Assembly (NCBI GenBank): GCA_963706795.1
Contig: OY970170.1
Location: forward strand, 1,020,001-1,052,000
Length of the DNA: 32,000 nucleotides
Direction of reading: 5' to 3'
DNA from: Candidatus Saccharimonadota bacterium
GTDB lineage: Bacteria; Patescibacteriota; Gracilibacteria; BD1-5; UBA2023
The notes under the pieces: model-generated
Seen by the model: the letters and a program-made list of their open reading frames with translations, nothing else
The model's database searches: none
Told to the model about the DNA's origin: nothing
In this document: positions 1 through 18,398 of the stretch, one piece after another
How positions within the stretch are numbered: position 1 is the first letter of the stretch
How the letters are laid out: every line of letters begins with the position of its first letter
Made by a program: the position numbers and the translations under genes

Positions 1-2006
1 CTTTGATGCACTGATGACGCATCAGTGAAATATAGCTCATTGTACATCTCAGGTGTGAGATATACAATAGCAGATTTCCCTGTGTCCTCACGATTGTATA
101 CGAATACATATTTTCGCTCTTGTCCATCAAATCAAAGCAAATTTAAGAAAAACGAGCCTCTTCAGAAAATTTGGGGCGTTTTCAATTGTCGCACATCGTC
201 TACATGGACTGGCAATGCGATTGAACCAGTCATGAGATCTTGTAGGATTGATAGATCTCATTTACTTTTTCAGTAAGTGACTGATCTTGATAGATAGGTG
301 GGTTTTTCCTGGTTAATGGCAACTTCAAGATATCCCTGAGGAGCTATTGTGGCATCTCTCGCTCAGAGTGTTATGTGATTGCTCAAGCTAGTGGCATCAG
401 GAGACACCTTTACTCCCGAGGAACAGCTGGGAAACCAAGCATTTACGTCGAAGGGTTCATGCTTTTTGTTTGCTCGTTCTTTTGAAATTCCTGACCACTG
501 TATGCTTTTTTGATGAGATGGAAGTATGCTTCGACTTGCATATAATAGCCCCTCTCAGAGTCCAGTAAACTGATGACCTCATAAACGATTCTCATTCCAG
601 TATGACAAAGAAATCCTGTTAATCATTGGTGCGTATTCTTCTGCCAATGATACCTTGCCCTTGGGAACAGCTGTTGATATATATGGAGCTCTTCCTGTAA
701 TTGTTACTATAAGGCTATGTAGGTCGAAATAATGAAGTGCCTCTTCTCAGATTTTTCCCTCCCAGTCGAGTGGATCGGAGCCGAGATATAATGTGGGTTG
801 AAAATCCCTGCCATACGATGCTGCTAAAAGCAGTATGTCAGAGATAGAAAAATGACTCAGATCTTTTGATTTTTTGCGCGACGGCTCAAGGGAGCAAAAT
901 GCACACCCAACACTACATCCGTTAGATAATTCAAGCCAGTGGATGTTTTTTAAAAGAGCATCGCCTGTTTGGCGTGACTTTGTGGTATTAAAAATCGAAT
1001 GACTGAAATCGGGTCTTTGCTTTAGCGTATCTTGAAGTATTTGAATGACAGGCTCAGCGCTTAATAAGGACAAAAAAGCTATTCTATCTTTTTGGGGAAT
1101 ATCCCTAAAAATTTGCACCAATTGGGCTATCAATTTTTGACTATCGTCTCATTTTTCAATTGCATCTGTGACCTCCTGATAGGGAATACGGTCATTCTTG
1201 ATTTTATAACTCAAAAGAAGCTTGTTTCTCGAAACGATTACAGATTCTGGAATATCGCTCGACTGATTTCAATAGTAAAAATGAGTTAAAAAGTCAAAAG
1301 TGAGCAATTTCGCCTCTACAATAGGTGAAATGAGTGTCTCAGTGAACAACTTTTCTCTCAGAAAATCCCCGTCTATATCAGGGAAGCTGTCAATTATTCA
1401 ACAAATGAATTTTACAACGTCTGGATGACAAGAAGATCCATCTTTTTCCTTTGTTTTAAGGCTTTCTAGTAATATCTTTTTTTGAGAATCTTGTTTTGTG
1501 CTTGTGTAAGAAAGCGATCGATCTCACAGGGGGTATCCTGTCATCTCTTTAGATGGGATATCTTTTCGGTATATATGTCAGAGAGAGTAGGCTGGTGGAG
1601 TATTAGTGACACTGGGGGCATTCATCTGTGCGAGTATTGCATCGACCGACAGTCTTAAATCATCTGGGGTATCCCGTCTTGCTGTCACCTTTCGTTCTTG
1701 TTGGGCTACTGAGTATTCTGCTGGGATATCCCTTTTTTTCTTTTGCCTCGGGGTTTTTTCTCATAGTAAAATACGCTCAACTGCACCAGATGAATTCATA
1801 CATACTTTCATAACTCCCTCCCGAAAGTCGAGAAAATTAATATCAGACAATGTAGCCTCCTGAGGAGTTCATCATTCAAAAAACTCTACCCTTGTGCTTA
1901 TGGGGCAAGAAATGGGTTTTTCATTTACAGGGAAGGATACTATCCCTGCTGGATGATTCGTTGAGGACCATGTCGGCACAGAAGTGGAAACGATAGATTC
2001 TGGCAT
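1..2006 (-). CDS. Large radical-SAM-domain protein; C-terminus runs off the left edge (>=668 codons)
   Basis: One minus frame is free of TAA/TAG from ATG 2006-2004 to position 1 when TGA is sense. I count 16 in-frame TGA, and there is an in-frame TAA just upstream at 2048-2046. It contains CxxxCxxC (NGCSVGCAFCS, codons ~917-894), the radical-SAM 4Fe-4S motif. The N-terminal ~290 aa are unrecognised. Confidence 0.6.
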
Positions 2007-2173
2007 GTTCAAAAAAAGGTACTTGAAACGTAGTGTGATTTTGGGTTACCCCTGCATCATACCTCTTCAGGATGGGGAATTCAAATATTGGGGTGTGATG
2101 TGAATAAATAGACTTAGCTCTTCGGCAGACGGAGTATTTTTAATGCTTTTTGGAAGGGTTGTAAGTGAGGTTT

Positions 2174-2327
2174 AAAAATATTGTGTCGCTAATTGTGTTT
2201 TTGTATGCGATTTTGGACAAAAAGAAAAGCATCAGTGTTTAAGTTCTGATGCCGTTCTTGAGGTTGTTGGAATGTGTGTAATGGTGGCGAGGAGTAGAAT
2301 CGAACTACCGACACAAGGCTTTTCAGG
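2174..2327. repeat. attL: 154-bp direct repeat with the displaced 3' 46 nt of tRNA-Phe (2282-2327), the tRNA terminator hairpin and downstream flank
   Basis: Base-for-base identical to 14213-14366 by direct comparison (offset 12039). Identity stops at 2328 (aat...) versus 14367 (cct...). Confidence 0.9.
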
Positions 2328-2387: not shown

Positions 2388-3284
2388 TTAGGTGTACAAG
2401 TCAAGCGAGTTTATCTTTGTTCTAATAGCATCTACTTGGAAGTTCAAATAGATTTTTGTTGTATTGAGGTTGCTATGACCAAGAATTTGTGAGATATTAT
2501 ACAGGTTCAAGTCTTTCTTCGCGAGTTCAGTTGCAAAAGTATGACGGAACATGTGGGTGGTGATCTTAAAGGTCACCTTCTTTTTTATTCTGTAGAGTAC
2601 GTTGTAGATTTCTCGATGTTGTAACTTTCCTCAAATATAGGTAGGGAAGTATGCTTTTGGGTCAGCAAAGGTTCTGTTTCGTAAACTCTCGAATGATCGA
2701 AGAATGGGTTGGAGTTTTTCAAGAATCGGAACAATCCTATCTTTTTCTCATTTCCCACTTTGTACTCTGATATAACCCTCACTATGGTTTACATCCTCGG
2801 GCCTGAGATTTATGAGTTCGTAAAGTCTAAGCCCAGTGTAGAGATATGTGTAAACGATAGTTTTGTTGCGGGTATCAATGATGTCATCCTTGGGATACAT
2901 GCTATGTAAGAGCCAAAGAATCTTATCTATTTGATCCTTGGTAAAGTGCTTTGGAAGCTCTTTGGGGATCTTTTTGCGTACGATCTGATCGATGGGATTA
3001 GTAGTGATATAGTTTTCACGTACCAAGTATCAGCAAAATACTCTGTAGTCCTTACGTAAGCGATTGTATGTATGAGACGACCAATTATTTCTTGTTGATA
3101 GGTCAAAGAGTAGTCTACGGAAATTCTGAGCTGTAAATGTAGTTGGATCATCAAGCTCGATGAGCTCGTAATTCTGTAAGTGCCGAAGGGCTGTCTTGTA
3201 TGCTGAGAGCGATGCTTTGGTGAGTCCTTGTCAGTATTGCTTCTCCTCTAAAAAGGCATCCATGAAGTAATTGTTGAAACGCAT
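2388..3284 (-). CDS. int: Tyrosine recombinase / phage integrase (298 aa)
   Basis: ORF-track pieces 2388-2576 and 2748-3026 lie in the same frame and join through in-frame TGA at 2631, 2748, 3030 and 3231. The joined sequence reads ...RVQSGKGEKDRIVPI...HMFRHTFATELAKK...LGHSNLNTTKIYLN (R..HxxR..Y catalytic pattern). Start is ATG 3284-3282 and the stop is TAA at 2390-2388. Confidence 0.85.
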
Positions 3285-3457: not shown

Positions 3458-3509
3458 TACATATTGTATATGTACAATCGCTTATATACGTTTATCTGTA
3501 CATATACAA
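3458..3509. promoter_or_regulatory. Inverted-repeat cluster between the divergent int and DUF3892 genes (candidate operator)
   Basis: GTACATAT-TGT-ATATGTAC palindrome at 3458-3476. TGTATATGTACA (3466-3477) is the exact reverse complement of TGTACATATACA (3498-3509). Confidence 0.4.
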
Positions 3510-3619
3510 ACGCTATATATAGTGGTATGATTAAATTTTCTTTTGACAGAAACTTACTATTTGTGAGAATTAAAACAGACAGCGCGGCTGCTGTCCGTAT
3601 ATTGAATAACTTTCATAAC

Positions 3620-3919
3620 ATGCCAGAATTTCAGGTTACATGCATCACGAAACCAAATCGTGAAAGCAAGCATGAACACATTACCCATATTGGTAACATC
3701 GCAAATAAGTGGAGACTTACTAGAGGAGAGGCTATTAGACGCATAGATGCCAAAGAACAAGCTTACTATACTATTGAGCCGAGAACCCAAAACAAAGCCT
3801 ATGTTTGAGTAGTTCGTGAGGCTGGGAAAGTCCCATATCTAAGAACCCACGCAGATGGTTTCTATAATGATAACCTATTGAGTCTTGAAGAGTGTACGGA
3901 TGCTTGTAAACTCTACTAG
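3620..3919 (+). CDS. DUF3892-like small protein (99 aa)
   Basis: Starts MPEFQVTCITKPNRESKHEHITHIGN..WRLTRGEAIRRIDAKEQAYYT.. and continues through TGA 3806-3808 as ..KAYVGVVREAGKVPYLRTHADGFYNDNLLSLEEC.., ending at TAG 3917-3919. The pattern matches my recollection of DUF3892. Confidence 0.5.
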
Positions 3920-3938
3920 AAAAATAGATATGAAAATA

Positions 3939-3976: not shown

Positions 3977-3998
3977 TTCAACAATAGTAGGGTTTCGG

Positions 3999-4037
3999 GA
4001 GTCAAGTGTAACGGTTCTACGAACCGACACTTGACTC
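3999..4037. other. Long composite hairpin overlapping the last codons of the Zot-like gene
   Basis: GAGTCAAGTGT-AA-CGGTTC-TAC-GAACCG-ACACTTGACTC (11 + 6 bp). The Zot-like TAG stop (4019-4017) sits in the loop. Confidence 0.5.
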
Positions 4038-4841
4038 GGGAGATGTATCGGGCAACTGTGGCCTTAATTCTGGTGCAGGGGTGTCTAAAGACACGCCCAT
4101 GCCCCGAAGTCTCTCAAAGAGAGAACCTTTTGTATAAATACTCACTCATTCTTCGATGAGTTCTTTTGTGTGGTACTCGTAGTAAGGAAAAGGGAAGAAG
4201 GGATGTAGGTTTACATGCATACCAAATCCTACCTTTTCAGCTTTGGAGAGGTCTGGATCATCTGGGTTGAGTACATAGTAGTCATGATACCATCTGATGA
4301 AGTAGAGGCCCATTTTGTAATGTCTCCAAGTGGTTGCGAGTCTTCGGAATTTTACATCGAGATCGTGAGGATTTTGAACTCAGCAGAGAAAGAGGCAGTT
4401 GAGCTTTCTGGGCTGATAAATGAAGGAGAGGAGAGCTTCATTTTTACCTTTGAAGTTCTTGTCGAAGTTGCGGGAGTTGAAGTAGATGCCACCTTCATCG
4501 AGCGCGATGTTGAACCAGAGGTCTTTTGGGAGATTTGGATAGGTAGATCGGAAGATTGTGGCGCGTTCTTCGTATTCTTCGAGGTGGAGCTTTGGTTTGA
4601 GTGAATAGAGCTTTGCACGATCCTTGTAGAGGTTGATGTACTGGTGATAGTCGTAGATGTCGGAGAGGATATTGAGAAGGTCTTCGTGTGATTGAATTTG
4701 GAAGTCTGAATATCCAGTCCAATAGTTGGATATATTCACTGTCACTTTACGGTTTGCATCGTGGAGGTAGCGAGTGATCGCTTGAGTCTTACCAGCTCCA
4801 AAACGACCAAGAGTGAGATAGAAGCCATAGCGTTTTGACAT
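4017..4841 (-). CDS. Zot / pI-like P-loop assembly ATPase (274 aa)
   Basis: N-terminus MSKRYGFYLTLGRFGAGKTQ (Walker A) and FNIALDEGG (Walker B-like). The frame continues through TGA at 4380 and 4146 to TAG 4019-4017. It is the last gene of the morphogenesis operon, as gene I is in Ff phages. Confidence 0.7.
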
Positions 4842-4868
4842 GGGAGAGATTTGTTAGTGTTTTGGTGT

Positions 4869-5237
4869 TTAGTCGGATTTGAAGAGTCGATATACAAGAG
4901 ATCCAATTGAGAGAACAAAGAAGGAGGAATAGGCGTAGATAACGAGTGCTACGGTTGTTTTAGCGAGGAAGAGTGAGCCAAAGAGTGTCCATCCCATACA
5001 TATATGATACAGCGTGAAGGCAAGCAGTGGCGCTGTGAAATTCATGAAGAAGAGGAAGAATGTTGTGAAGACAACGAGTGAGCCGTACTTGTTAAGAAAT
5101 CTGTAGAGCACCTTGAAATACTGTGGGAATACATCAGCTGCTTTATCTACTATGAAGCCGAGAGCGATTCCTAACTGTGGGAGGAAGCCTTTTATGAGTT
5201 CATAGAAGGCAGTGAGAGCGCGGAGAATGAGAGACAT
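4869..5237 (-). CDS. Polytopic small membrane protein, g6p-like by size and position (122 aa)
   Basis: Standard ORF. It is very hydrophobic with about 3-4 TM segments. It lies between the adsorption-like gene and the Zot-like gene, where gene VI sits in Ff phages. Confidence 0.6.
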   Translation of the reverse strand: MSLILRALTAFYELIKGFLPQLGIALGFIVDKAADVFPQYFKVLYRFLNKYGSLVVFTTFFLFFMNFTAPLLAFTLYHICMGWTLFGSLFLAKTTVALVIYAYSSFFVLSIGSLVYRLFKSD

Positions 5238-5238
5238 A

Positions 5239-7332
5239 TTAGAAACGCTTAAAGACTATGAAGAACCCAAAGAGGAGTGGAACAGTCGCAAAGAATAGGG
5301 CGAGATAGTCAGGGAAGCCCATTACTCAGGGTGTGAAATCGAGCGCATAGGGTCTTTGGGATGTAGGTAGAGCCATATAGCTTGCCTGCATCTTTTGATA
5401 GCTTACGATGTGTACTCTTCCAAAGTAGCAGACCTTAGTGTCTTGAGGGGAAATACCTACAGAGTTGAGAAGTGAGAGAATGCTATTGATTGGTGCGGTT
5501 GTGACATCAAAGAGCTTATCTACAATGCTGAGGGATGCTTTGAGAGTTGAGTTATCTACTGCATCGGATGGATGTACAGAGAGACGGAAAGAAGTACCGT
5601 TTGATGAGTAGGCAAATGATCCATCTGAGGCAAACATTTCACATGCACTTCATTCGTTGGTTCATGTTCCTGTGAGACTTGAGAAGTTACCCACTGCACT
5701 TCCAGTTCAGGTGTTACCAAGTGATCCAGTGAGTGATTTGACGGGTGTTTTAAAGATTGAGAGAGCATCGGAGGGTGAGCTAAATTGGAAATTGAGCCCA
5801 CTGCCAAAAGCATCACTTCCACTTCCATTCAGTTGCCTAAGAAAGTCAGGGCGGACTTTACAGTAGTCGCCAGATGCATAGCAGTATTCAGCTGGCCCAC
5901 ATGAGTCCTTGCTTGACCAAGAACAGGAGTATTGAGGCGTGGAGCAGGCATTGCGAGTAACATCTCAGGAGTATTGAACTGTACCTGATCCTGCATACTG
6001 TCATGGATTGCTTATTTCAGGCATACACATATCTCCATTCGTCTTACAGAGATGAGCATTTGCATCCTGACATCGATAGTTTCATGAGATTGTTTTCCAT
6101 GAACAGGTGTTTGGTTGGAGGTCTTGGGATGTTCCCGAGACGCTTGTTGAGCCTGAGAAGGTTTGTGGGGTACAGGTCTGGGATTCTGTGGAGTAGTTGT
6201 TGGTTGATCAGGTGTAGGAGAACCATCACTGAGTAGATCATGAAAAGATCGATCCAGTAGTACTCGATGATCAGTTGCCTCACGTAGATGGTGGTGGTAC
6301 TGACATTGTTCATCCGCAGGCTATCATTGCAGGATCAAAACGTCATGAATCATCGGCACAATAATTCTTCATGTCGCTTGGACGAAGAAAACAGGAGTTA
6401 TAGAGTGGATTATTGCAGTGGAGATCCCATGAGTATATTTTACCATCTCAGGCGTTGATATAGAGATATGGATTCTCAAAGGTGGTAAACTTTCCGAGTG
6501 CATATACATAGGATCATGTGAAATATGTACCACCTCAGGAGAAATTATCGCTTGTGAGGTTTTGCTTGAGGACAAAAGAATTATCAGAGGTAACAAAGGC
6601 GGCAACTAATCAATCATTGTTAAACTCAGGAGGCATGAAACCGAGTGGAAGTGGGGCGGGCTGGATTCAGGTTTCAAGAATAAAGGTAGGTGCATTGCCA
6701 AATGGATAAAATCGTCCGAGCTTACCGCTAGCTGTTGGGTAGAGAAACTGTGTACCCAGTGATGTGGCTTTGGTAACGAAACGTTGTACGCGAGATCATT
6801 GTGACGGCGCTTCGAATCCTGCGGGTTTTGGAGCTTGAGAGAGATAAGTGAAGGTGAGATCAGAGTTGATGGCGTAGTATTTTACATAGTCGCCCTCGAT
6901 CGTAACTTCGATATTGTCTTTAAAGAATGGAGTGGTTACTGGCTTCCATCGTCAGTTAGTGCTGTCATAGAGTGCTAATGCATTTTCTATACCTGATCAA
7001 ACAATTGAGATCAGAGAAACAGTGTCACTTATTTTGTATACTTCGTAGAAGTTATAGACCGTACGAATATCGAATCCACAGCATGGTTGAGAATAGACTC
7101 TTCCCCAAACTACAGCTGTGCCATATGTATCACTGAGTGAGTAGATGTAGGTAGTTCAATATGATGAATAGTACTGAACACTGAGATTTACGTTATTGAG
7201 TACTGTACCTTTTTGTGCAACGGTTGGGGTTGTAACTACGTTAAAAGCGCTCGCAGGATTTACGAACGCTAGAGATGTCAGAATTAAGAGGCTAATAGTG
7301 AAAGCTGAGAGGATTTTGATATTTGTTTTCAT
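5239..7332 (-). CDS. Secreted, C-terminally anchored adsorption (g3p-like) minor coat protein (697 aa)
   Basis: A single minus frame is open from ATG 7332-7330 to TAA 5241-5239 with 23 in-frame TGA (my codon-by-codon read). It has a signal peptide (MKTNIKILSAFTISLLILTSLAFVNPASA), Cys-rich and Gly/Ser/Thr-rich segments, and a C-terminal TM (GFPDYLALFFATVPLLFGFFIVFKRF). Confidence 0.75.
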
Positions 7333-7341
7333 AGGTACAAA

Positions 7342-8232
7342 TTAGCGAGTACGACTTCAGGCTTTGTAGGCACGGATGCAGAGGAGGAAGAAAATGAGGA
7401 GTGAGAAAAAGACTCACCAGAAAAATGCACAGACAGTCACGATGAATCGGATGTCGATTGCATATGCTCATGAGTCTGAGTGACAACCTGCGGGTAAGAG
7501 TGATCCTGTGGCTTCGAATGCAATACAGGGGGCAGGAGATCAAATGGCTCATGAGTTGGTTGATCCTGTATTCGTGGATCAAGTGTTCGTGCTTCATGAA
7601 TTTGTTGATCCCGAGCCACTTGTAGGAGGTTCGGATGGTGGAATATACGTAGGAAGAATGCCGTTGAGATCGATTAAATCGCCATTTAGGTAGGTTGGTG
7701 CACAGCCATCAGTTGCGAGCTTGGGAGTTGGATCGATGTAGTAACGACCGAAACCGTAGTAACCAGCAGAGGGATTAAACGGGAAGAGTTGTCCGTCAGG
7801 TTGTCAGTGGGCTGAGTCATAGAGACAGTACCATTTTGAAGTGGTAGAGTTTGAGACTTTTGCCTTTCCTGCATCACTTCTCATTTGGTATCACGAAGCT
7901 ACATCTATGGGAAGCATGTCTGTGAAGATGCCGTTTGCAGAGGTTGGTGGAATGGGGGTTGATTGGACTATGCCTTCGGGTATGTGGCCAGCAGTAATGT
8001 CTACAGCTTTAAGTGAGAGTACTGTATCGAGTCAGAGATCACCAGAGTTTGCATTGTAGAGTCCGTCACAACTTCCTGCATTTACACTGTGACAAAACCA
8101 GTCTGTATGTATTGCACCATCCGAAGAGAAACCGAAGAGCTGATTTTCACCTTGATATATGCTGTATGCTGAAGTACTTAAGGTCTGGAAAAGAGGAACG
8201 GTTGCGAGAGCGAGAAGAAAATATTTGCGCAT
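7342..8232 (-). CDS. Second secreted, C-terminally anchored virion-tip-like protein (296 aa)
   Basis: Open from ATG 8232-8230 to TAA 7344-7342 with 10 in-frame TGA. It has a signal peptide (MRKYFLLALATVPLFQTLSTSA), a linker SGSGSTNSGSTNTGSTNTGSTNSG and a C-terminal TM (FIVTVCAFFWGVFFSLLIFFLLC). Confidence 0.7.
7549..7620 (-). repeat. Peptide-level tandem repeat (GSTN[S/T])x4 linker, several of its glycines encoded by TGA
   Basis: Read directly from the minus-strand translation of 7620-7549. At nucleotide level the repeat is imperfect. Confidence 0.6.
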
Positions 8233-8234
8233 GG

Positions 8235-8384
8235 CTATGAAGTTATGATCCAAAGAAACCAACCGATACAGTAGAAGGCAAAAGCCCCGAGGATGTATCC
8301 GTGTGCATGGGTTGTGAAGAACCAAAGAGGCCAGAGGATTGCATCTGCTGAGGCATCGAAGAAATAGGGGAGGAGGTATTGCAT
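8235..8384 (-). CDS. 49-aa hydrophobic protein (g7p/g9p-like small virion or assembly protein candidate)
   Basis: Sequence is MQYLLPYFFDASADAILWPLWFFTTHAHGYILGAFAFYCIGWFLWIITS, from ATG 8384-8382 to TAG 8237-8235. The stop lies 2 nt from the next gene's ATG. The ORF is below the ORF-track size cutoff. Confidence 0.5.
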   Translation of the reverse strand: MQYLLPYFFDASADAILWPLWFFTTHAHGYILGAFAFYCIGWFLWIITS

Positions 8385-8409
8385 AGATGATCCGTTAAGA
8401 AAGACGATA

Positions 8410-8438
8410 GAATTGGACTGAACTTGTCAGTCCAATTC
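8410..8438 (-). terminator. Perfect 12-bp stem-loop immediately after the major-coat-like gene
   Basis: GAATTGGACTGA-ACTTG-TCAGTCCAATTC, 10 nt downstream of the coat-like gene's stop. This parallels the terminator after gene VIII in Ff phages. Confidence 0.55.
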
Positions 8439-8448
8439 GCGATCCCGC

Positions 8449-8745
8449 CTAGCGAGAGATGAAGCCCTTGATGAGGCCTGTAGCTTTGTTCGCGATTGCG
8501 ATGGCTACGAGTCCGCCAGTGAATCCGAGAACGACTGTGAGAAGTGAGACACTTCCGTTGGCCATAGCCGTGTTCACAGGAGATGTTTCTGATCCAGAGA
8601 GTGTGAGTCGTCCGAAGTCAGTAGAGGTTGTATCTGTGACAACCTGAGCAGCGTGTGTGGCGCTTACTACGAGGAGTGGAACAACTGCCATTGTGACAGC
8701 TGATGCCTTGCGGAGAGTCTTGCTCTCCATGATTGCCTTGAACAT
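8449..8745 (-). CDS. Major coat protein (g8p-like) precursor (98 aa)
   Basis: It has a signal-like N-terminus (..AVTMAVVPLLVVSATHAAQ), an acidic/polar segment, a hydrophobic helix (SLLTVVLGFTGGLVAIAIA) and a basic tail (NKATGLIKGFISR). The stop is TAG. Confidence 0.65.
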   Translation of the reverse strand: MFKAIMESKTLRKASAVTMAVVPLLVVSATHAAQVVTDTTSTDFGRLTLSGSETSPVNTAMANGSVSLLTVVLGFTGGLVAIAIANKATGLIKGFISR

Positions 8746-8788
8746 AGAAAAAAGATGAAAGGGTAGAAGGCAGGGGTTTAGAGCCCCG

Positions 8789-8863
8789 TTCCTAGCTTCC
8801 GTGACATTTCTAGCGAACCTTTATGTCGTCAGGTTCATTTCGCTACTAGAGGGAAACTAGGAA
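8789..8863. other. ~75-nt imperfect long hairpin in the leader upstream of the coat-like gene
   Basis: On the minus strand, the outer 12-bp stem TTCCTAGTTTCC / GGAAGCTAGGAA (one G-U pair) encloses an inner stem TAGCG..AACC / GGTT-CGCTA. Confidence 0.4.
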
Positions 8864-8888
8864 TCGAGCTCGAAGCTGTGTTTGAGTA

Positions 8889-8967
8889 GAAAAAAAGACA
8901 CAAAAAAAGTGGTTCTCCGGCAACAGGCAGGTGGGTTCAGCGACCTGCTTGTATATGGTGAACCACT
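8889..8967 (-). terminator. Rho-independent terminator after the 99-aa gene
   Basis: On the minus strand, the stem AGTGGTTC...GAACCACT with inner GCAGGT/ACCTGC is followed by TTTTTTTGTGTCTTTTTTT. Confidence 0.6.
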
Positions 8968-8996
8968 TGATCTAATGAACAGTGTCTTGGATGGAA

Positions 8997-9296
8997 TTAC
9001 TTAGCCTCTTTGGCGAAAAGAGTTCCGATCTCCTTGAATTCTTCTTTGGTGAGTGAGAGCTTGAATGGTACTGGGAAGTACTTTTTGAGTTCATCTACCC
9101 ATTTCTTGGTAGTGAGAACGATCTCAACACGGTCGGAGGTTTTAACTTCTCCTGTGTCAGTGTTTGTTCGTTCACTGGTATATGCGACAACTTCGAGTTT
9201 ACGATCTACGTAACCTTCGCTAGTGAGTGTCTCGTGATTTACGAGATTTTGTTCGTTTAGACGAGCGAACTTCGTTTTGTTTTTGTCTGCGGGCAT
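8997..9296 (-). CDS. 99-aa hypothetical protein, first gene of the structural operon (g5p-position ssDNA-binding candidate)
   Basis: Standard ORF with no TGA. The assignment rests only on size and position upstream of the coat-like gene. I see no sequence similarity to known g5p. Confidence 0.35.
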   Translation of the reverse strand: MPADKNKTKFARLNEQNLVNHETLTSEGYVDRKLEVVAYTSERTNTDTGEVKTSDRVEIVLTTKKWVDELKKYFPVPFKLSLTKEEFKEIGTLFAKEAK

Positions 9297-9363
9297 AATC
9301 GAAAAATGAAGTATTAAAAAAGCCCGTTCAAGAGAAAGAGAGATCGATCAAATGAACAAGCGT

Positions 9364-9391: not shown

Positions 9392-9394
9392 CCT

Positions 9395-10134: not shown

Positions 10135-10254
10135 TTGACCGAACTATCTATTTCTCTTCTCTTCAAGTTCTTTTGTGCCTTTGGACTTCCCATATACGAA
10201 TATACTCAGCAGTGTACCAAGAGCACCTATAATTGTTACAATTCCATATACACT

Positions 10255-10572
10255 TTTACCATCTAGTATAAGGTAGAACCCTCATCCTATAGAGGATAGA
10301 GTGATTGCTGAGGAAGATATCCATCCCAAAATCTGCATCAACTGATTAGATGCTATGACAGATTTTTCAAGTCCCATTCTGTGGGCTGCCTGATTTTCAG
10401 CCATGGACAAAATCCTGTCAGCAGCACCAGATAATACTAGTTCATATTTCTGAAATTCTTCGGCTGGTGGAATTGGTCCGGAGTATTGAGTGCTTTGCAT
10501 GGCAATGGTACGTTGCTGGTCCACCATACTTTCACTCACTTTCCTAAGCTGCTTGGCTACTTTGTGACTCAT
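10255..10572 (-). CDS. DUF2335-like membrane protein (105 aa as encoded; possibly frame-disrupted)
   Basis: Contains ..YSGPIPPAEEFQKYELVLSGAADRILSMAENQAAHRMGLEK.., the DUF2335 pattern as I recall it. It reads through TGA 10284-10282 to TAA 10257-10255 after one TM. See the finding on the out-of-frame second TM. Confidence 0.55.
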
Positions 10573-12755: not shown

Positions 12756-13925
12756 CTAAGCAAAGATGGTGTCATGAAGTTCGAGAGCCTTTGAAGTGTT
12801 GTTAGCAAAGATTGATTCGAGTTCGTAGAAGGTTGAGGTGGATGCTGGTATAGGTTCGTCTTCAAAGAGGCGGAATCCGTACATGAGTAGGTCTGTGCCA
12901 TAGCGGTCAAAGAGGGTTTTAAAGAGTTCTTGGCGTGAAGTGATGGATGAGTAGGAGTCCATGTATGCTTCGTACATGGTGCGTGAACGGTTCTTGCGCT
13001 TGTAGATGATGTCTGAGACGAGGAGATCGCGTGCTTGTTTGAAGTAGTTCTCGTCTGTAGGTTTACGTACGGGGAACGGTTTTCGTTTATGACTGAGTAG
13101 GTAGCTGAGTGAGAAGTTGAGATTTTCTTCGAATTGATCGATGGCGTATTGTTCTATATGCTCGAATATTGATTCGAGTGATAAGTCTACGAGCTCTTTT
13201 ATGCCTTTGGAGTTCTTGCGATACTCTAGGCGTGTAATTGGTGGTTGGTTCTCATCTTTATATGGTGCAAAGGGGAGAGTTCAGCGGGCTACTATTTCGT
13301 ATTTTCTCTTGTCTATGACATCGAGCATCTTGTTGTAGATGGCTATTTCGTGTCTGTCTGACTTGAGGTAGTACCATGTGGTGATTCAGTTTACTTTGAA
13401 TTCCTTGGTCTTTTTTTGGTTCTTGGCGTAGCGTTTGGAGAACTCGTGAGCGTCTATGCCTTGTATATCCACGCACCAGTCAATGCGAGATACAATCTTT
13501 TGAGTATGTACGTTTATCTCGAAGAGTTCGAAGAAGTAGGGGAGAAGGTCTGAGTAAGCTGTGAAGAAGAGTCCAGTGAACTCTATGTCCGAATAAACGA
13601 TCTTGAGATCGTTTTTCTTGGCGAGTTTGAGATGTATCGTTGCGATAATCTGTGCTGTTTCTGAGAGTACATGGAGTACTTTTAGGCGGTTTCCGTTTAC
13701 ATTGCCGAAGTAAGTAATGCGGAGTCAGTGATCCAATATGTGTGTATTGGAGTTGCCAACGAGTCCGTAGAGCTTGATAGCAATTCGTGTTCGGTTGGAG
13801 ATTCGAACTGTGAGGTAGTCGATGCCTTTATAGAAAACTGAGAGGTGATTTCTAAGGACTATTTTCTTGGTTCTCGCGTAGAGTTTTGTGTCCGTTTTTA
13901 GCGGGACATTTTGTGTTTTTGCCAT
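12756..13925 (-). CDS. Rolling-circle replication initiator, Rep_trans (PF02486)/RstA-like (389 aa)
   Basis: Pieces 13725-13925 and 12756-12977 share one frame, which is open throughout with TGA at 13725, 13386 and 13281. The motifs GIDYLTVRI, SRIDWCVDIQG and EIAIYNKMLD resemble the iDyl / RiDla.D / iY.K blocks I recall for this family. The stop is TAG 12758-12756. Confidence 0.6.
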
Positions 13926-14011: not shown

Positions 14012-14212
14012 ATTTATTTTTTCTGGAGAATTTGGGTAGTTTTTCGTGGGCGTGAGATGTACCAAAAAAGTATGCCTAGCATCACATATGGACTAAGGAC
14101 TATACCGATGGTTCATATTTCTTGTGGTGTCATGATTGGGCTTTTAGACAAATAAAAAGCCCGCTCCTTAATGAAACGAACCACTTGAAAAAACGAGGCT
14201 AAAATTTGGTCA

Positions 14213-14366
14213 AAAAATATTGTGTCGCTAATTGTGTTTTTGTATGCGATTTTGGACAAAAAGAAAAGCATCAGTGTTTAAGTTCTGATGCCGTTCTTGA
14301 GGTTGTTGGAATGTGTGTAATGGTGGCGAGGAGTAGAATCGAACTACCGACACAAGGCTTTTCAGG
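14213..14366. repeat. attR: 154-bp direct repeat supplying the 3' half of the intact tRNA-Phe and its terminator
   Basis: Identical to 2174-2327. Confidence 0.9.
14255..14291 (-). terminator. tRNA-Phe terminator, also present in the attL copy at 2216-2252
   Basis: On the minus strand: GCATCAG-AACTTAAACA-CTGATGC followed by TTTTCTTTTT. Confidence 0.6.
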
Positions 14367-14395
14367 CCTCTGCTCTACCACTGAGCTACCCCGCC
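14321..14395 (-). tRNA. tRNA-Phe (anticodon GAA), CCA encoded
   Basis: Reverse complement is GGCGGGGTAGCTCAGTGGTAGAGCAGAGGCCTGAAAAGCCTTGTGTCGGTAGTTCGATTCTACTCCTCGCCACCA. The cloverleaf folds by hand: 7-bp acceptor stem, GCTC/GAGC D stem, GAGGC/GCCTT anticodon stem, loop CTGAAAA, and a TTCGATT T-loop. Confidence 0.9.
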
Positions 14396-14498: not shown

Positions 14499-17400
14499 TT
14501 AGGCGGGGACTGAGTCGAAATCTTCTCGGATTTTGGCGGTTTTCCAGCGGGTGGTGACCCAGACTTGGAGGGCTTGTTGGTCGTCGATCTTCATTTTGGT
14601 ATCGATACGCTGACCCTGGATGTCGAGGAAGATATGGATCGTGCCGTCGGTTGTTTGAGAAAGAAGGTGCTTGAGATCGAGGAGATCTTGTTTGGAAGCA
14701 CTTTTTGGGACAGTAATGAGGAGTGCCTTTTGCGGAGTTTTTTCGTCGATTTTGGTTACACCTTCGGCGGCGAGTGGGGAAGTGTAGTAGCTGACGCGGA
14801 ATTTTGCATCGAAGAGCTGCATTTCTTGGGCTTGGCTACGGATTGCAGTGATGGTGTTGGATTTGATGCTTGCGGCGATGACTGAGATTTCGCCCGAGTC
14901 GAGGTCACATTTGAGATTGCCTTCGACGAGGAGGATTTTGTCTTCTTCGAGGAGAGGGCCGAGGAGTTCGTAGTCCTTTGGGAAGACAACAGCACTAAAC
15001 CTAAAATCCGTGGAATCACACGTGGCCACTGCCATGAGCTTACCCGTCTTAGTTTGTATCTTGCGAATACTCGAAACAAGGCCGACAAATCGCACTCGAA
15101 TCATCTTTTCACGCTCCTTCTTTTGCTTTGGAGCATCGGTCGTGTCCTCGGGCATTGGTGCAAGGTTATCTTGGCCTTGTGTCGGTGCAGGAAGCGGTAT
15201 TTCGCCAGATGGCATGTCTGAATCTCCCATATCGGTGATAATTTCTTCGCGTTCCTCGAGTTTTTTGAGGAATTCTAGGACGTGTTCTTTGCCAATAATA
15301 CGGCGATCAATAAATGGTTTGAGGCCATCGAGTCCATGTCCAGAGACACAATATCCAATACTCGCTTTTTCACCACGGATGCGCTCTTCAAAGGTCATTG
15401 GTGGAGCCTTCTCAAGCGAGAAATTGAGTGCTCAGAGGTGTGAATCTGCAGCCGACATATCAAAGAGTCCGATCTGAGAGGAGGCGGCTTTGGATTCGTT
15501 TTCTTTGGCGTAGGAGATCATTTTAGGGATTGATCTGAGGAGGCTTGCGCGCTCTCCAAATCGGTCGAGGGCACCTGAGAGAGTGAGGGCTTCGAGAGAT
15601 TTTTTGTTGATGACATCTCCGCTCGTTTTGGTAACAAAATCGAGTGCGGATTCGTAGGCAGATTTTTCGCGTCAGATACGGATGGATTCGATGGGACCGC
15701 TTCCGAGATTTTTGACGGCTTTGAGTCCGAAACGGATATTTTGGCGATCGATATAGGTGAAGTGCTTCATCGATTCGTTAACGTCGGGTGGTAGGATGCT
15801 GATACCTTTGGCTTTGCATTCTTCGATTTCCATGGTGATGCGCTCGGCGTCTTCCTCGTCGGAGACCATGAGGGCGGTCATGAATTCGGTTGGATGGTAG
15901 GCCTTGAGGTAGGCAGTCTGGTACGAAATCATCGAATAACACGCGGCATGGGATTTATTAAATCCGTAACCGGCAAATGGTTCGATAATGTCTTCGAAGA
16001 TATATTTTGCGAGCTCAGTCGTATGTCCTTGGCTGTTGGCAGCTTCGATAAATTTTTGCTTCTGCTCCATGAGGAGATCGATTTTTTTCTTACCGATGGC
16101 ACGGCGGAGGATATCGGCTTCACCGAGCGAAAATCCGGCGAAGGCCTGTACGAGCTGCATGATCTGCTCCTGATAGACGGCGATTCCCTGGGTTGGCTTC
16201 AGGATGGCTTCGAGTGAAGGGTGTGGATAGGCAACTTTCTCCTTACCGTATTTGCGGGCAATATAGGTCGGGATATAGGCCATCGGTCCTGGTCGATACA
16301 ATGATACCATTACGATGATATCTTCGAAGGTATTGGGACGAAGCTCTCGGAGGTATTTGCGCATTCCAGGGGATTCAAACTGGAAGACTCCGGTGGTGTC
16401 ACCTTCGGCAAATATCTTAAATACTTTTTTGTCTTCAAAATTGATCTTGAGAAGATCAATATCGATCCCGTGGATATTTTTGACGATCTCGAGACATCGC
16501 TTCATGATCGTGAGATTTCGCAGTCCGAGGAAGTCCATCTTGAGAAGTCCGAGGTCTTCGAGTGGATATTGCGAGAGCTGGGTTACGACGGTTTCGTTAT
16601 CCTTTGGCGGGTGTTGCAGCGCACAATAATTGGTCATTTTTTGTGGCGCGATAATAACCGCACAGGCATGGACTCCGAGCTGACGGACGGATCATTCGAG
16701 CTTGAGGGCATTGTCGATAACCTTGTGGTAGCGCGGATCAGATTGATAGGCTTCTTTAAATTCGACGGATTCTTCGATGGCATCGGCGAGCTTGGTTCCT
16801 GGTCGAGCAGGGATGAGCGCGGCGAGTTTATTCATCTCGGCGAAGGGGATTCCGAGAACCTTTCCAACGTCCTTAACCGCGGCGCGGGCGGCCATGGTTC
16901 CAAAGGTACAAACACGAGTAACGTGGTCTGCCCCATATTTGTCGCGAACATATTCGAGTACGGCTCCGCGTCATTCGTCCGAAAAGTCGACGTCGATATC
17001 CGGCATGGAGATACGCGCAGGATTGAGGAATCGCTCAAAAAGGAGTCCGTATCTGAGCGGATCGATGTCGGTAATACCCGAAAGATACGCGAGAATGGCT
17101 CCGGCCGCAGATCAACGTCCAGGTCCAACTGGTACGTCATGTGCCTTCGCCCAGTTAATGAAGTCGGATACGATATTAAAATATCCGTTAAATCCCATGA
17201 GATCTACTACAACGAGCTCGTATTCTAGACGATTTACGATCTCTTGTTTTTTAGCATCGAATGCTCCAAGGATTTCTTTCTTTTTGTCGGTTTCGTAAGC
17301 GACTGAGAGCTCGATGAGCTCATCAACGCTCATCGCAGAAAGTTTTTTCTCTGGCTTTGGGATATCGCGTTTGTGAATGAATTCATTAATTGTGGCTTCA

Positions 17401-18398
17401 TCGAGCCCAAAATCATAGCGGTAATTGAGACCGCGAATACAGAGCCTTCGGAGATTCCATTCTTCGTCGGCGAGCTGGATTGTTCAGGGTGGAAGAATAC
17501 TGAGATAGGCGTTGTAGTCTGCTGCTTCGTCTGGTGCGAGCTCGAATTTTGGGATGAGGGTTTTTCCGTAGGGGATTTCGATATTGATCTGGCTGGAGAT
17601 CTTGAGGGTGTTCTCGATGGCATCTGGCGCATACGAAAAAAGCTCGCGCATCTCTTCGGGACTACGAAGCGAATAGTTTCCTTCGATGAGTGTAGGGCGA
17701 TCGGGGTCTTCAAGCGAGCGTCCATCTCCAATACAAAAGAGGAGATCTTGAGCCTCGTTGTCTTCTTCGGTGAGATAATAACTGTCATTCGCAGCCACGA
17801 GTGGGAAGCTGTATTCGCGGGCAATTTTTACAAATGTGTCATTGATCTTGGTCTGTGATCCACGATCTGGATGCTCGAGAAGCTCGAGATAAAAGTTACC
17901 TTTACCGAAGAGACTTTCGTAGTATTCGATGCGTTCGACGACATATTCTCGTGGACGACCGGTTGTGACGTGCTGGGCGATTTCACCGGTGTGATTACCG
18001 GAGAGTGCTATGAGATCGGACTTGTAATGATCGAGGAGCTCAAAGTCGATGCGTGGCTTAAAATAAAATCCATGGAGATAGGATTCGGTGACCATGGCGA
18101 TGAGGTTTTGGTACCCATCAAAATTCTTGGCTAAAAGCACGATCTGATAGAGATCATTGTCCTTATCTTTATTTGTACGACCCTTTCGTGCGATGGTAAA
18201 TTCGACTCCGATGATGGGATTTACGCCCGCTTCTTTGGCATATTTATAAAACTCAAATGCACCATACAAATTTCCTGCGTCCGTGAGTGCGAGACCTGGC
18301 ATGCCTAATTCTTTGGCTTTGTGTGCCAGCTTTTTAGGAGTTCCAAGACCCTGGAGGAAGGAATAATGTGTATGTGTATGGAGGTGTACAAATGACAT
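14499..18398 (-). CDS. dnaE: DNA polymerase III alpha subunit (1299 aa)
   Basis: Five ORF-track pieces share one frame and are joined by TGA at 17484, 17112, 16971, 16692, 15672 and 15432. No TAA/TAG occurs in the gaps I checked by index. It has the PHP N-terminus [17 protein letters not shown] plus GPGR[TGA]SAAG and KLE[TGA]..GVHA motifs. The stop is TAA 14501-14499. Confidence 0.95.

What the first reader, a model, noticed from the sequence alone, without database searches (positions are those of the whole stretch)
5239..8232. Phage virion genes are densely recoded with UGA-Gly
By my count the 697-codon adsorption-like gene has 23 in-frame TGA and the 296-codon gene has 10 (about 3.3% of codons each). 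This compares with 6 in the 1299 codons of host dnaE. The Gly-rich linkers are partly built from TGA, including GSTN repeats at 7549-7620. The integrase (4), rep (3) and Zot-like gene (2) also carry TGA. The element therefore cannot express a single structural protein in a standard-code host. That differs from phages that use a code different from their host as a timing device: this one fully matches its host's rare code. The flanking radical-SAM gene is also TGA-rich (16 in 668 codons), so the enrichment is not uniquely viral.
Basis: seen in the sequence. Interest (0 to 1): 0.65.

Follow-up and report, generated by a model that had tools for sequence, protein, structure and literature searches.

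The report
Filamentous-type prophage written in code 25
A 12-kb filamentous-phage-like prophage sits in the tRNA-Phe gene of a Gracilibacteria bacterium that reads TGA as glycine; its two large surface-protein genes really are full of TGA, but code-matching by prophages of these bacteria is already published, and the excess most likely reflects weak selection on fast-evolving genes, not a special phage strategy.

Summary
TGA means glycine here; in dnaE it falls on conserved Gly positions.

The genes belong to a 12,039-bp element bounded by 159-nt repeats at tRNA-Phe. It carries an integrase, a Zot/pI-like ATPase (assigned by fold only), a coat-like gene and pIII-like and pVI-like genes. This makes it an inovirus-like prophage, with relatives in other Gracilibacteria.

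TGA supplies 26% of Gly codons in the element and 8% in 12 host genes (p = 2e-7). The difference survives correction for synonymous-site GC and G content. The excess is confined to g697, g296 and the integrase. The coat-like gene, g122 and g99 have no TGA, so "cannot express a single structural protein" is wrong.

The TGA-rich genes match the share expected from base composition, while host genes fall far below it. The window's TGA codons lie mostly at non-conserved glycines. An orphan gene outside the element and an unrelated island in a relative show the same excess. In low-GC relatives TGA is 75–90% of Gly codons throughout.

Liu et al. 2023 already showed that prophages of code-25 bacteria are TGA-dense. 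Interest is modest.

The parts
2169..2327 (.). Left copy of the 159-nt direct repeat (att site) bounding the element
   Evidence: Direct repeat 2169-2327 / 14208-14366, 99% identical, spacing 12,039 bp. The independent contig L008 ends inside this repeat.
2388..3284 (-). Tyrosine integrase (298 aa; 4 TGA, 6 GGN)
   Evidence: Pfam PF00589 E = 1.5e-30; PHROG 1 integrase E = 1e-44. 46% identical to the integrase of the related element in L003.
3470..3919 (+). DUF3892 protein (149 aa; 1 TGA, 5 GGN); the only plus-strand gene I accept in the element
   Evidence: Pfam PF13031 E = 6e-14. Also called as a gene with this domain on L008.
4017..4841 (-). Zot/pI-like morphogenesis ATPase (274 aa; 2 TGA, 15 GGN) with a Walker A motif GRFGAGKT
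   Evidence: AF2 model pLDDT 86, pTM 0.83. Best PDB match is 2R2A, the Zot N-terminal domain, E = 3e-6. The four best BFVD matches are all Inoviridae Zot proteins, E down to 2e-11. Sequence profiles give only PHROG 1675 (M13 protein I) at E = 0.0047. 34 homologues besides the window's own copy; every one that a source names is from Gracilibacteria.
4869..5237 (-). g122, a small multi-pass membrane protein in the position of pVI (0 TGA, 7 GGN)
   Evidence: Hydrophobic sequence. Weak homology to the gene in the same position in L002 and L006, E = 6e-8. Located between the pIII-like gene and the Zot-like gene.
5239..7332 (-). g697, pIII-like adsorption or minor coat protein (697 aa; 23 TGA, 41 GGN)
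   Evidence: N-terminal signal peptide ending ...NPASA, Gly/Ser/Thr-rich middle and C-terminal membrane anchor. Only the C-terminal ~130 aa are conserved in relatives, E = 2e-16. 19 of the 23 TGA lie in codons 1-460.
7342..8232 (-). g296, second secreted and membrane-anchored virion-type protein (296 aa; 10 TGA, 22 GGN)
   Evidence: Signal peptide and C-terminal hydrophobic anchor. The C-terminal ~70 aa are conserved in L002, L006 and L007.
7549..7617 (-). G-S-T-N pentapeptide repeat linker within g296, built partly from TGA
   Evidence: Codons 206-228 use varied synonymous codons. Three of the Gly codons in the repeat are TGA, and a fourth TGA follows two codons later. No tandem DNA repeat was detected there.
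8449..8745 (-). Major-coat-protein-like gene (98 aa; 0 TGA, 8 GGN)
   Evidence: Signal peptide, acidic stretch, hydrophobic helix and basic C-terminus. It lies just upstream of the pIII-like genes. Same architecture and position in L001, L002, L003 and L006, and one of the lowest TGA shares in each locus. No profile hit.
8997..9296 (-). g99, small protein upstream of the coat-like gene (0 TGA, 3 GGN); possible ssDNA-binding protein by position only
   Evidence: No profile hit. In L001 a gene with an SSB domain (PF00436) lies upstream of the coat-like gene, with one small gene between them.
10144..10572 (-). DUF2335 membrane protein (142 aa; 1 TGA, 12 GGN), an accessory gene in the low-GC part of the element
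   Evidence: Pfam PF10097 E = 8.7e-13; PHROG 3996 E = 4.8e-30. GC is 0.35-0.38 across 9-12 kb.
12756..13925 (-). Candidate replication initiator (389 aa; 3 TGA, 10 GGN)
   Evidence: Conserved in L006 (33% identity, E = 3e-59) and L003. First gene of the element next to the occupied tRNA. Shared motifs R-I/L-D-x-x-x-D, Y-N/D-K and R-I/L-E resemble Rep_trans initiators, from memory only. No Pfam, PHROG or PDB profile hit.
14208..14366 (.). Right copy of the 159-nt direct repeat (att site), overlapping the 3' part of tRNA-Phe
14321..14395 (-). tRNA-Phe(GAA), the integration target
   Evidence: ARAGORN. The same dnaE and tRNA-Phe adjacency occurs in L009 and L010. The L003 relative is also integrated at tRNA-Phe, with 63-nt repeats.
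14499..18398 (-). Host dnaE (comparator; 6 TGA, 78 GGN)
   Evidence: E = 5e-233 to Thermus DnaE. In the two conserved motifs that contain a TGA, it aligns to Gly.
3..2006 (-). Orphan gene with a CxxxCxxC motif, outside the element (comparator; 16 TGA, 24 GGN)
   Evidence: Lies to the left of the att repeat. No Pfam or PHROG hit. One distant homologue carrying PF04055. TGA share of 0.40 matches the composition expectation of 0.35.

Best explanation
Region 2169-14366 is a 12-kb inovirus-like (filamentous-phage-type) prophage. It is integrated by a tyrosine integrase into tRNA-Phe, next to dnaE, in a Candidatus Gracilibacteria bacterium that reads TGA as glycine.

The element is written in its host's code, which is the expected and already published state for prophages of these bacteria.

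The high TGA density of the two pIII-like genes is not a recoding strategy. In this host clade TGA is a disfavoured glycine codon. It is removed from conserved genes and probably from highly expressed ones: the host core genes, the family-conserved glycine positions of the phage, and the coat-like gene. It drifts up to the share set by base composition (about 35-40% of Gly codons) in weakly constrained, fast-evolving and probably low-expression sequence. That sequence includes the variable receptor-binding parts of g697 and g296, the integrase and a neighbouring orphan gene.

Shown: the code, the counts, the element's boundaries, the Zot fold, the family, the statistics and the codon-by-codon comparison. 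Inferred: filamentous virions, the expression levels, and selection as the cause of the depletion.
For: Code 25:
- TGA aligns to Gly in conserved DnaE motifs.
- Relatives encode the Walker-A glycines of Zot with TGA.

The element:
- 159-nt repeats at tRNA-Phe.
- Integrase.
- Zot fold as the top hit in both PDB and BFVD.
- Coat-like, pIII-like and pVI-like architectures in the canonical inovirus order.
- A family of about 12-kb elements in Gracilibacteria, one of which (L003) is also integrated at tRNA-Phe.

TGA usage:
- Element 43/167 against host 31/376. The effect remains after correction for GC4 and G4.
- g697 plus g296 (33/96) and the orphan gene (16/40) fit the composition-based expectation (p = 0.46 and 0.51). 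Host genes are far below it (p = 1e-24). The coat-like gene, g122 and g99 together have 0/18 (p = 0.0015).
- At family-conserved Gly columns the window uses GGN in 26 of 31, which is not distinguishable from host genes (p = 0.18). At non-conserved Gly positions it has 27/80 TGA (p = 3e-8 against host).
- The coat-like gene avoids TGA in all five related elements (Mantel-Haenszel OR 0.083).
- In the related genome L009, poorly conserved core genes have 13.6% TGA against 3.7% in genes with a Pfam hit (p = 0.002), and an unrelated mobile island has 34% against 7% in the core.
Against: - The host baseline is only 12 genes from this genome plus about 60 kb from three relatives at 70-76% DnaE identity. 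There are no genome-wide statistics, and no ribosomal or other clearly highly expressed host genes were available.
- The contrast between conserved and non-conserved positions within the element is only a trend (p = 0.10).
- A per-gene rank test of element against host genes is not significant (p = 0.52), because several small element genes have no TGA.
- Expression levels are assumed from what is known of M13-type phages and were not measured.
- The inovirus assignment lacks a recognisable replication protein. The coat and pIII assignments rest on architecture and gene order alone.
- L002 and L006 are close relatives, so the five-locus coat test has roughly three independent lineages.
Confidence: 0.6

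Rival explanations
1. Incomplete amelioration. The element arrived recently from a low-GC, TGA-rich Gracilibacteria lineage, where TGA supplies 75-90% of Gly codons, and still carries part of the donor's codon usage.
For: - All detected relatives of the element are in genomes of 21-28% GC with TGA shares of 0.75-0.9.
- A second, unrelated mobile island in the TGA-poor relative L009 is also TGA-enriched: 34% against 7%.
- Mobile elements are the genes most likely to move between clades.
Against: - At glycine positions conserved across the family, where relatives use TGA in 72 of 88 codons, the window uses GGN in 26 of 31. The inherited positions have therefore already been converted.
- The surviving TGA codons are mostly at lineage-specific positions.
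- GC at fourfold sites in g697 and g296 (0.38-0.39) lies within the host range of 0.35-0.62, and GC4 adds nothing once element membership is in the model.
- An orphan gene outside the element has the same share.
Confidence: 0.2
2. Adaptive throttling. TGA, a rare and probably slowly decoded codon in this host clade, is kept in the minor coat and adsorption genes to hold their output low relative to the TGA-free major coat gene. This would set virion stoichiometry or limit the toxicity of pIII-like proteins.
For: - The split follows the copy numbers known from M13-type phages. The coat-like gene, g99 and g122 have 0/18 TGA, while the pIII-like genes have 33/96.
- Coat-gene avoidance of TGA recurs in all five related elements.
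Against: - The TGA-rich genes sit at the share expected from base composition and not above it, which is what drift predicts without any selection for TGA.
- A non-phage orphan gene and the integrase behave the same way.
- g122, also expected to be a low-copy protein, has no TGA.
- In the TGA-rich relatives the adsorption-like genes simply match their hosts.
- There are no data here on tRNA-Gly(UCA) abundance or decoding speed.
Confidence: 0.13
3. Pure base-composition or strand-skew effect. The coding strand of the element is G-poor, so the Gly codon with the fewest G bases (TGA) is favoured mechanically.
For: - The plus strand has a strong positive GC skew over 2-9 kb and 12-15 kb.
- G at fourfold sites is 0.05-0.08 in minus-strand element genes against 0.10-0.25 in host genes.
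- Adding G4 to the model weakens the element effect from p = 1.9e-5 to p = 0.006.
Against: - The element effect remains significant with GC4 and G4 in the model.
- Equally G-poor element genes (coat-like, g122, g99, Zot-like) have 0-12% TGA.
- Host genes on the G-poor strand (dnaE, MiaB, h352: 11/132) do not differ from host genes on the other strand (20/244); my tally.
- The composition expectation is 0.26-0.40 for every gene, so composition cannot produce the contrast between genes.
Confidence: 0.05
4. Artefact. The long frames are spurious ORFs opened by treating TGA as sense, or they result from sequencing errors.
For: With TGA as sense, many overlapping frames open up. One example is a 413-codon plus-strand frame at 5371-6609 with 24 TGA.
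Against: - The minus-strand frames carry signal peptides and membrane anchors.
- They have homologues in the same position in five other loci.
- They form a coherent inovirus gene order.
- They are identical in an independent assembly over 2298-6337.
Confidence: 0.02

Closest known systems
Code-25 prophages of Gracilibacteria and Absconditabacteria (Liu, Jaffe, Chen, Bor and Banfield, mBio 2023, PMC10746230)
   Same: An integrated phage in a bacterium that reads TGA as Gly, with ORFs dense in in-frame TGA and therefore usable only in a code-25 host. That paper states this for all 27 prophages it found in these two lineages, and it discusses a codon-optimisation explanation.
   Different: Those prophages were recognised by a portal, tail-related, terminase or integrase gene, and the paper has no occurrence of 'filamentous' or 'inovir'. 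This element is a 12-kb inovirus-like one. Here the host clade uses TGA rarely (about 2-8% of Gly codons in core genes), so element and host differ in usage, and usage is strongly uneven within the element.
Inoviruses (Inoviridae in the broad sense, Tubulavirales), including the 'cryptic inoviruses' of Roux et al. 2019 (PMC6813254)
   Same: - Size of about 12 kb.
- A Zot/pI-like ATPase (by fold).
- A small coat-like protein with signal peptide, hydrophobic helix and basic tail.
- pIII-like proteins with Gly-rich linkers and a C-terminal anchor, and a pVI-like membrane protein.
- The gene order coat, pIII, pVI, pI.
- Chromosomal integration at a tRNA by a tyrosine recombinase.
- Roux et al. report inoviruses in the Candidate Phyla Radiation.
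   Different: - No sequence-profile match to any inovirus family except a marginal pI hit.
- No match in IMG/VR when searching with the Zot-like or rep protein.
- The replication protein is not recognisable.
- My term search of Roux et al. found genetic codes mentioned only for the standard code and code 4, and a joint search for 'Gracilibacteria' and 'inovirus' did not return that paper.
Filamentous phages of Mollicutes (plectroviruses such as Spiroplasma SpV1), whose genes are read with the host's code 4 (TGA = Trp)
   Same: A filamentous-type phage that shares its host's reassigned TGA codon. That plectroviruses do this is my own knowledge. Roux et al. predicted the genes of Acholeplasma phage MV-L1 with code 4.
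   Different: The reassignment there is to tryptophan in Mollicutes, not to glycine in the CPR. I found no sequence relationship.
Phages that use a code different from their host (Ivanova et al. 2014; Borges et al. 2022, preprint 10.1101/2021.08.26.457843)
   Same: In-frame 'stop' codons concentrated in some structural genes.
   Different: Those phages recode TAG or TGA while the host uses the standard code, and the mismatch is proposed to regulate late genes. Here phage and host share the code, so no switch is needed. The defining feature was tested and not met.

Membership tests
Genetic code 25 (TGA = Gly) genome | In-frame TGA at positions that are conserved glycines in homologues | tested here: met
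   The TGA codons in DnaE motifs GPGR-G-SAAG and LE-G align to Gly of Thermus DnaE. In relatives, the Walker-A and other conserved Gly positions of Zot are TGA.
Genetic code 25 (TGA = Gly) genome | tRNA-Gly(UCA) present and release factor 2 absent | not tested
   Neither gene lies in the window. The only tRNA found is tRNA-Phe. The source genome could not be retrieved.
Inovirus-like (filamentous) phage | pI/Zot-type morphogenesis ATPase | tested here: met
   By fold: the top PDB hit is 2R2A (Zot N-terminal domain), E = 3e-6, and the four best BFVD hits are Inoviridae Zot proteins, E = 2e-11. By sequence the evidence is only marginal: PHROG 1675 at E = 0.0047, and Pfam Zot in 1 of 34 family members at E = 0.17.
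Inovirus-like (filamentous) phage | Small major coat protein with signal peptide, hydrophobic helix and basic C-terminus | tested here: met
   By architecture and position only, at 8449-8745 and its counterparts in four relatives. No homology to known coat families.
Inovirus-like (filamentous) phage | Gene order coat, adsorption protein (pIII), pVI, pI, in a genome of about 5-15 kb | tested here: met
   The order is coat-like gene, g296, g697, g122, Zot-like gene, all on one strand. The element is 12,039 bp. The same order occurs in L001, L002, L003 and L006.
Inovirus-like (filamentous) phage | Rolling-circle replication initiator (HUH or Rep_trans type) | tested here: inconclusive
   The conserved 389-aa candidate has no Pfam, PHROG or PDB profile hit. 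The only support is motif resemblance recalled from memory.
Inovirus-like (filamentous) phage | Single-stranded DNA genome in a filamentous virion released without lysis | not testable with these tools
   This needs microscopy, particle purification or strand-specific sequencing.
Code-25 prophages of Gracilibacteria and Absconditabacteria (Liu et al. 2023) | Integrated in a code-25 host, with ORFs dense in in-frame TGA | tested here: met
   att repeats at tRNA-Phe and an integrase. 43 in-frame TGA in the nine minus-strand element genes tallied. The host's closest named DnaE relatives are Candidatus Gracilibacteria.
Phages recoded differently from their host (Ivanova 2014; Borges 2022) | The phage reads a stop codon as sense while the host does not | tested here: not met
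   Host dnaE and 10 of the other 11 host genes also carry in-frame TGA-Gly codons.
Radical SAM enzyme (the flanking gene at 3-2006) | Match to the Radical_SAM domain, including the CxxxCxxC cluster motif | tested here: inconclusive
   The motif CSVGCAFC is present, but there is no Pfam hit at E <= 0.01. The only homologue found is 38% identical over 19% of the query and carries PF04055.

The most novel reading that the evidence does not exclude
In a Gracilibacteria clade where the reassigned TGA codon is rare and probably slowly decoded, a filamentous-type phage uses it as a stoichiometry control. TGA is kept out of the high-copy coat gene in every member of the phage family examined, and it is tolerated or retained in the low-copy adsorption genes. 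The newest codon in the code would then act as a translational throttle. More broadly, TGA-Gly would be under continuing, clade-specific selection long after the reassignment: about 2% of Gly codons in some lineages and about 90% in others at similar GC.
Probability: 0.15. Interest if true: 0.55.

Novelty: new member of a known kind. Interest (0 to 1): 0.33.

Why it matters
The headline is expected biology and is already published: a prophage written in its host's rare code cannot work elsewhere.

Three things add something.
1. There is a family of inovirus-like prophages in Gracilibacteria that integrate at tRNA-Phe. Sequence-profile methods miss it, the IMG/VR scans I ran did not find it, and I found no description of it. 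One copy lies in a closed reference genome (CP042461.1) and is not mentioned in that genome's paper.
2. Use of the reassigned codon is very uneven. It ranges from about 2% to about 90% of Gly codons between Gracilibacteria lineages without tracking GC. Within this clade it is depleted in conserved genes and in the phage coat gene, and it sits near the composition-expected share in mobile, orphan and fast-evolving genes. That offers a simple handle on how selection acts on a reassigned codon after the reassignment.
3. A large public protein collection translates these contigs with TGA = Trp. This puts W where G belongs, even in P-loops, and degrades homology searches for these organisms and their phages.

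Tried and rejected
- IMG/VR scans with the Zot-like and rep proteins found no relatives.
In the second, the back-translated patterns ([WG] to TGG/GGN) cannot match TGA-encoded glycines, which may explain the failure. The source genome is evidently not a GTDB species representative.
- An exact look-up of the TGA-free coat-like protein found no record.
I therefore could not walk beyond the window or model rep.
- Sequence profiles for the Zot-like family gave no significant hit against PDB, and only one family member hit Pfam Zot, at E = 0.17.
- Rep profiles against Pfam, PHROGs and PDB gave nothing.
- Pfam and PHROGs gave nothing for g697, the coat-like gene, g99 or g122, and only a sub-threshold repeat hit for g296.
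- Rejected: recent tandem DNA duplication as the source of the TGA codons in the GSTN linker. The repeat units use different synonymous codons, and TRF finds no array there.
- Rejected: the strand-skew explanation.
- Rejected: the plus-strand ORF 4215-5174 picked by my greedy caller. It overlaps the Zot-like gene and g122, which have homologues and synteny.


Full report
**1. The observation**

Under the standard bacterial code the window breaks into short ORFs. With TGA read as sense, ORFs of at least 150 aa total 58.5 kb over the six frames, against 17.3 kb under the standard code. I translated the long frames and counted codons.

| Gene | Window coordinates | Codons | TGA | GGN |
|---|---|---|---|---|
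| g697 | 5239-7332 (−) | 697 | 23 | 41 |
| g296 | 7342-8232 (−) | 296 | 10 | 22 |
| dnaE | 14499-18398 (−) | 1299 | 6 | 78 |
| integrase | 2388-3284 (−) | 298 | 4 | 6 |
| rep candidate | 12756-13925 (−) | 389 | 3 | 10 |
| Zot-like | 4017-4841 (−) | 274 | 2 | 15 |
| left-flank gene | 3-2006 (−) | 667 | 16 | 24 |

- The G-S-T-N repeat lies at g296 codons 206-228, which is window 7549-7617. It holds three TGA codons, and a fourth follows two codons later.
- TGA means glycine. In the two conserved DnaE motifs that contain a TGA, it aligns to the Gly of GPGRGSAAG and LEG in Thermus DnaE.
- An independent public contig (L008) is 100% identical to window 2298-6337, so those frames are not products of assembly error.

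**2. What the element is**

- *Boundaries.* A 159-nt direct repeat (2169-2327 and 14208-14366, 99% identical) brackets 12,039 bp. The right copy overlaps the 3' part of tRNA-Phe(GAA), which lies immediately downstream of dnaE.
- *Genes inside, almost all on the minus strand:*
  - a tyrosine integrase (Pfam E = 1.5e-30);
  - a DUF3892 gene on the plus strand;
  - a 274-aa P-loop protein (the Zot-like gene);
  - a 122-aa multi-pass membrane protein (g122);
  - g697 and g296;
  - a 98-aa protein with a signal peptide, an acidic stretch, a hydrophobic helix and a basic tail (the coat-like gene);
  - a 99-aa protein (g99);
  - a low-GC stretch of small ORFs that includes a DUF2335 membrane protein;
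  - a conserved 389-aa protein next to the tRNA (the rep candidate).
- *The P-loop protein.* It has no significant Pfam hit and only a marginal PHROG hit to M13 protein I. An AlphaFold model built on 34 family sequences is confident (pLDDT 86, pTM 0.83). Its best PDB match is the Zot N-terminal domain 2R2A (E = 3e-6). Its four best matches among viral models are all Inoviridae Zot proteins (E down to 2e-11).
- *g697 and g296.* Both have the pIII-type layout: signal peptide, Gly/Ser/Thr-rich linkers and a C-terminal anchor. Only their C-terminal parts are conserved in relatives.
- *Gene order.* The order coat-like gene, g296, g697, g122, Zot-like gene is the canonical inovirus order.
- *Weak point.* The rep candidate shares conserved motifs with its relatives but matches no Pfam, PHROG or PDB profile. 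I could not model it. Its resemblance to Rep_trans initiators is my recollection, not a test.

**3. Relatives**

- The Zot-like protein has 34 homologues besides the window's own copy. Every one that a source names is from Candidatus Gracilibacteria, and none has a Pfam annotation.
- I fetched five loci. They include one in the closed genome CP042461.1 and one (L003) whose 12,524-bp element is also bounded by a repeat of the tRNA-Phe 3' end.
- Shared genes are rep, the coat-like gene (by architecture only), the C-terminal domains of the two pIII-like genes, the pVI-like gene, the Zot-like gene and the integrase.
- The host's DnaE is at best 77% identical to any database entry. The closest named entries are Candidatus Gracilibacteria.

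**4. Is the TGA density special?**

- *Within the window.* TGA supplies 43 of 167 Gly codons in nine element genes and 31 of 376 in 12 host genes to the right (Fisher p = 2.4e-7). In a binomial model the element effect survives correction for GC at fourfold sites (p = 1.9e-5) and for GC plus G content (p = 0.006). GC adds nothing once element membership is included.
- *The excess is not a property of virion genes as a class.* It sits in g697 and g296 (33/96) and the integrase (4/10). The rest of the element, integrase included, has 10/71. The coat-like gene, g122 and g99 have no TGA at all.
- *It is not a property of the phage alone.* The orphan gene outside the att site has 16/40.
- *Composition expectation.* A simple expectation from base composition, fT·fA/(fT·fA + fG), predicts a TGA share of 0.26-0.40 for every gene.
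  - g697 plus g296 match it (p = 0.46), and so does the orphan gene (p = 0.51).
  - The host genes are far below it (p = 1e-24).
  - The three TGA-free phage genes together are also below it (p = 0.0015).
  - The pattern is therefore depletion in some genes, not enrichment in the phage.

**5. Which genes and positions are depleted**

- Within g697, 19 of the 23 TGA lie in the non-conserved N-terminal 460 codons.
- I aligned each element gene codon by codon with its relatives.
  - At glycine columns conserved across the family, the window uses GGN in 26 of 31 cases, while relatives use TGA in 72 of 88 (p = 9e-11).
  - These conserved positions do not differ from host genes (p = 0.18).
  - At glycines specific to the window lineage, TGA is 27 of 80 (p = 3e-8 against host).
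- The coat-like gene has one of the lowest TGA shares in each of the five related elements. This holds even where its neighbours are at 77-84% (Mantel-Haenszel OR 0.083; CMH p = 3e-14). L002 and L006 are close relatives, so the test has roughly three independent lineages.

**6. The wider baseline**

| Locus | Relation to the window | GC | TGA share of Gly codons |
|---|---|---|---|
| L001, L002, L003, L006 | carry related elements | 21-28% | about 0.75-0.9 in most genes, element and host alike |
| L010 | DnaE 76% identical | 38% | about 0.02 |
| L009 | DnaE 72% identical | 40% | 0.07 in core genes |
| L012 | DnaE 70% identical | 34% | 0.78 |

- In the low-GC loci the adsorption-like genes carry 40-73 TGA each, so this window is a mild case.
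- The host's own clade is TGA-poor. TGA usage therefore differs greatly between lineages and does not follow GC.
- In L009, core genes without a Pfam hit have 13.6% TGA, against 3.7% in genes with one (p = 0.002).
- L009 also has an unrelated mobile island at the same dnaE and tRNA-Phe site (resolvase, a Toprim-domain protein, a methylase). Its TGA share is 34%, against 7% in the core (p = 4e-11).

**7. Explanation**

- *Best account.* In this clade TGA is a disfavoured glycine codon. It is removed from conserved sequence and probably from highly expressed sequence. It drifts to the composition-set level in weakly constrained sequence: the variable receptor-binding parts of pIII-like proteins, the integrase, orphan genes and other mobile DNA.
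- *Donor memory.* This rival says the TGA codons are left over from a TGA-rich donor. It fits the distribution of relatives but is contradicted by the conserved-column result.
- *Adaptive throttle.* This rival fits the contrast between coat and pIII-like genes. It is not required, because the TGA-rich genes do not exceed the composition-based expectation, and non-phage genes behave alike.
- *Strand composition.* This is rejected. Host genes on the G-poor strand (11/132) match those on the other strand (20/244); this is my tally. Equally G-poor phage genes have no TGA.

**8. Comparison with the literature**

- Liu et al. [quoted passage not shown] They discuss codon optimisation as an explanation. 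Their prophage calls rested on portal, tail-related, terminase or integrase genes, and the paper has no occurrence of 'filamentous' or 'inovir'.
- Roux et al. 2019 extended inoviruses to the CPR. My term search of that paper found genetic codes mentioned only for the standard code and code 4. A joint search for 'Gracilibacteria' and 'inovirus' did not return it.
- The paper on the closed genome that holds L001 has one occurrence of 'phage' and none of 'integrase' or 'mobile', so it does not describe the element.
- Shulgina and Eddy 2021 give the GC range of the code-25 clades. The passages I read contain no per-gene analysis of TGA usage.
- The case is therefore a new member of two known kinds: inoviruses, and prophages that share a code-25 host's code.

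**9. Verdict**

The code match and the excess over host genes are real. The claim that no structural protein could be expressed in a standard-code host is wrong, and the phenomenon is already known.
- Interest is modest. It rests on the undescribed phage family and on the uneven use of the reassigned codon.

Noticed in passing
window 4017-4841 (protein P0001) and the Zot family alignment A2: The public protein collection translates these contigs with TGA = Trp. P0001 has W at both TGA positions, and the family consensus shows the Walker-A motif as W-E-F-G-A-W-K-T where the glycines belong. This mistranslation probably weakens homology and domain searches for code-25 organisms and their phages.
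   Followed up: partly
L009 14164-23140: In the closest named relative of the host, the same tRNA-Phe downstream of dnaE is followed by a different mobile island (resolvase, a Toprim-domain protein, DUF5659, an N6/N4 methylase). Its TGA share is 34%, against 7% in the core genes. The dnaE and tRNA-Phe site looks like an integration hotspot in this clade.
   Followed up: partly
L010, L009 and L012 compared with L001-L006: The TGA share of Gly codons ranges from about 2% (L010, GC 38%) through 7-8% (L009 core genes, and this window) to 78% (L012, GC 34%) and about 75-90% (GC 21-28%). It does not track GC, which suggests clade-specific preference or avoidance of the reassigned codon.
   Followed up: partly
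L001 13627-15165; L012 632-1027 and 1994-2479: Some genes have no TGA at all in genomes where TGA is the main Gly codon: a 512-aa protein with no Pfam hit (0 TGA, 22 GGN), a hemerythrin (0/6) and a CheW (0/12). They could be very highly expressed genes or recent acquisitions from standard-code bacteria.
   Followed up: no
L002 7550-9658: The adsorption-like protein of this relative contains a collagen-like Gly-X-Y repeat (PF01391). It has 73 TGA among its 82 Gly codons, a far more extreme case of a glycine-rich linker built from TGA than the one in this window.
   Followed up: no
L001 (CP042461.1, positions 613336-634127): The closed Gracilibacteria reference genome carries a related inovirus-like element that includes a gene with an SSB domain. 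A minus-strand gene with a weak SduA_C hit lies between rep and the structural genes. The genome paper has one occurrence of 'phage' and none of 'integrase' or 'mobile'.
   Followed up: partly
window 2169-2327 and 14208-14366: The att repeat is 159 nt, which seems long to me for an att site. It extends about 113 nt beyond the 3' end of tRNA-Phe. The related element in L003 has a 63-nt repeat.
   Followed up: no
window 9300-12750: The inner part of the element has low GC (0.35-0.38). It holds only small ORFs without homologues, apart from a DUF2335 membrane protein (PHROG 3996, categorised as moron or auxiliary gene). It may be an accessory or regulatory module acquired separately.
   Followed up: partly
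window 3-2006: A 667-aa orphan protein has a CxxxCxxC motif and only one distant homologue (carrying a Radical_SAM domain) among 5.8 billion proteins. It lies directly next to the prophage att site. Its function, and whether it was left behind by another mobile element, are unknown.
   Followed up: partly
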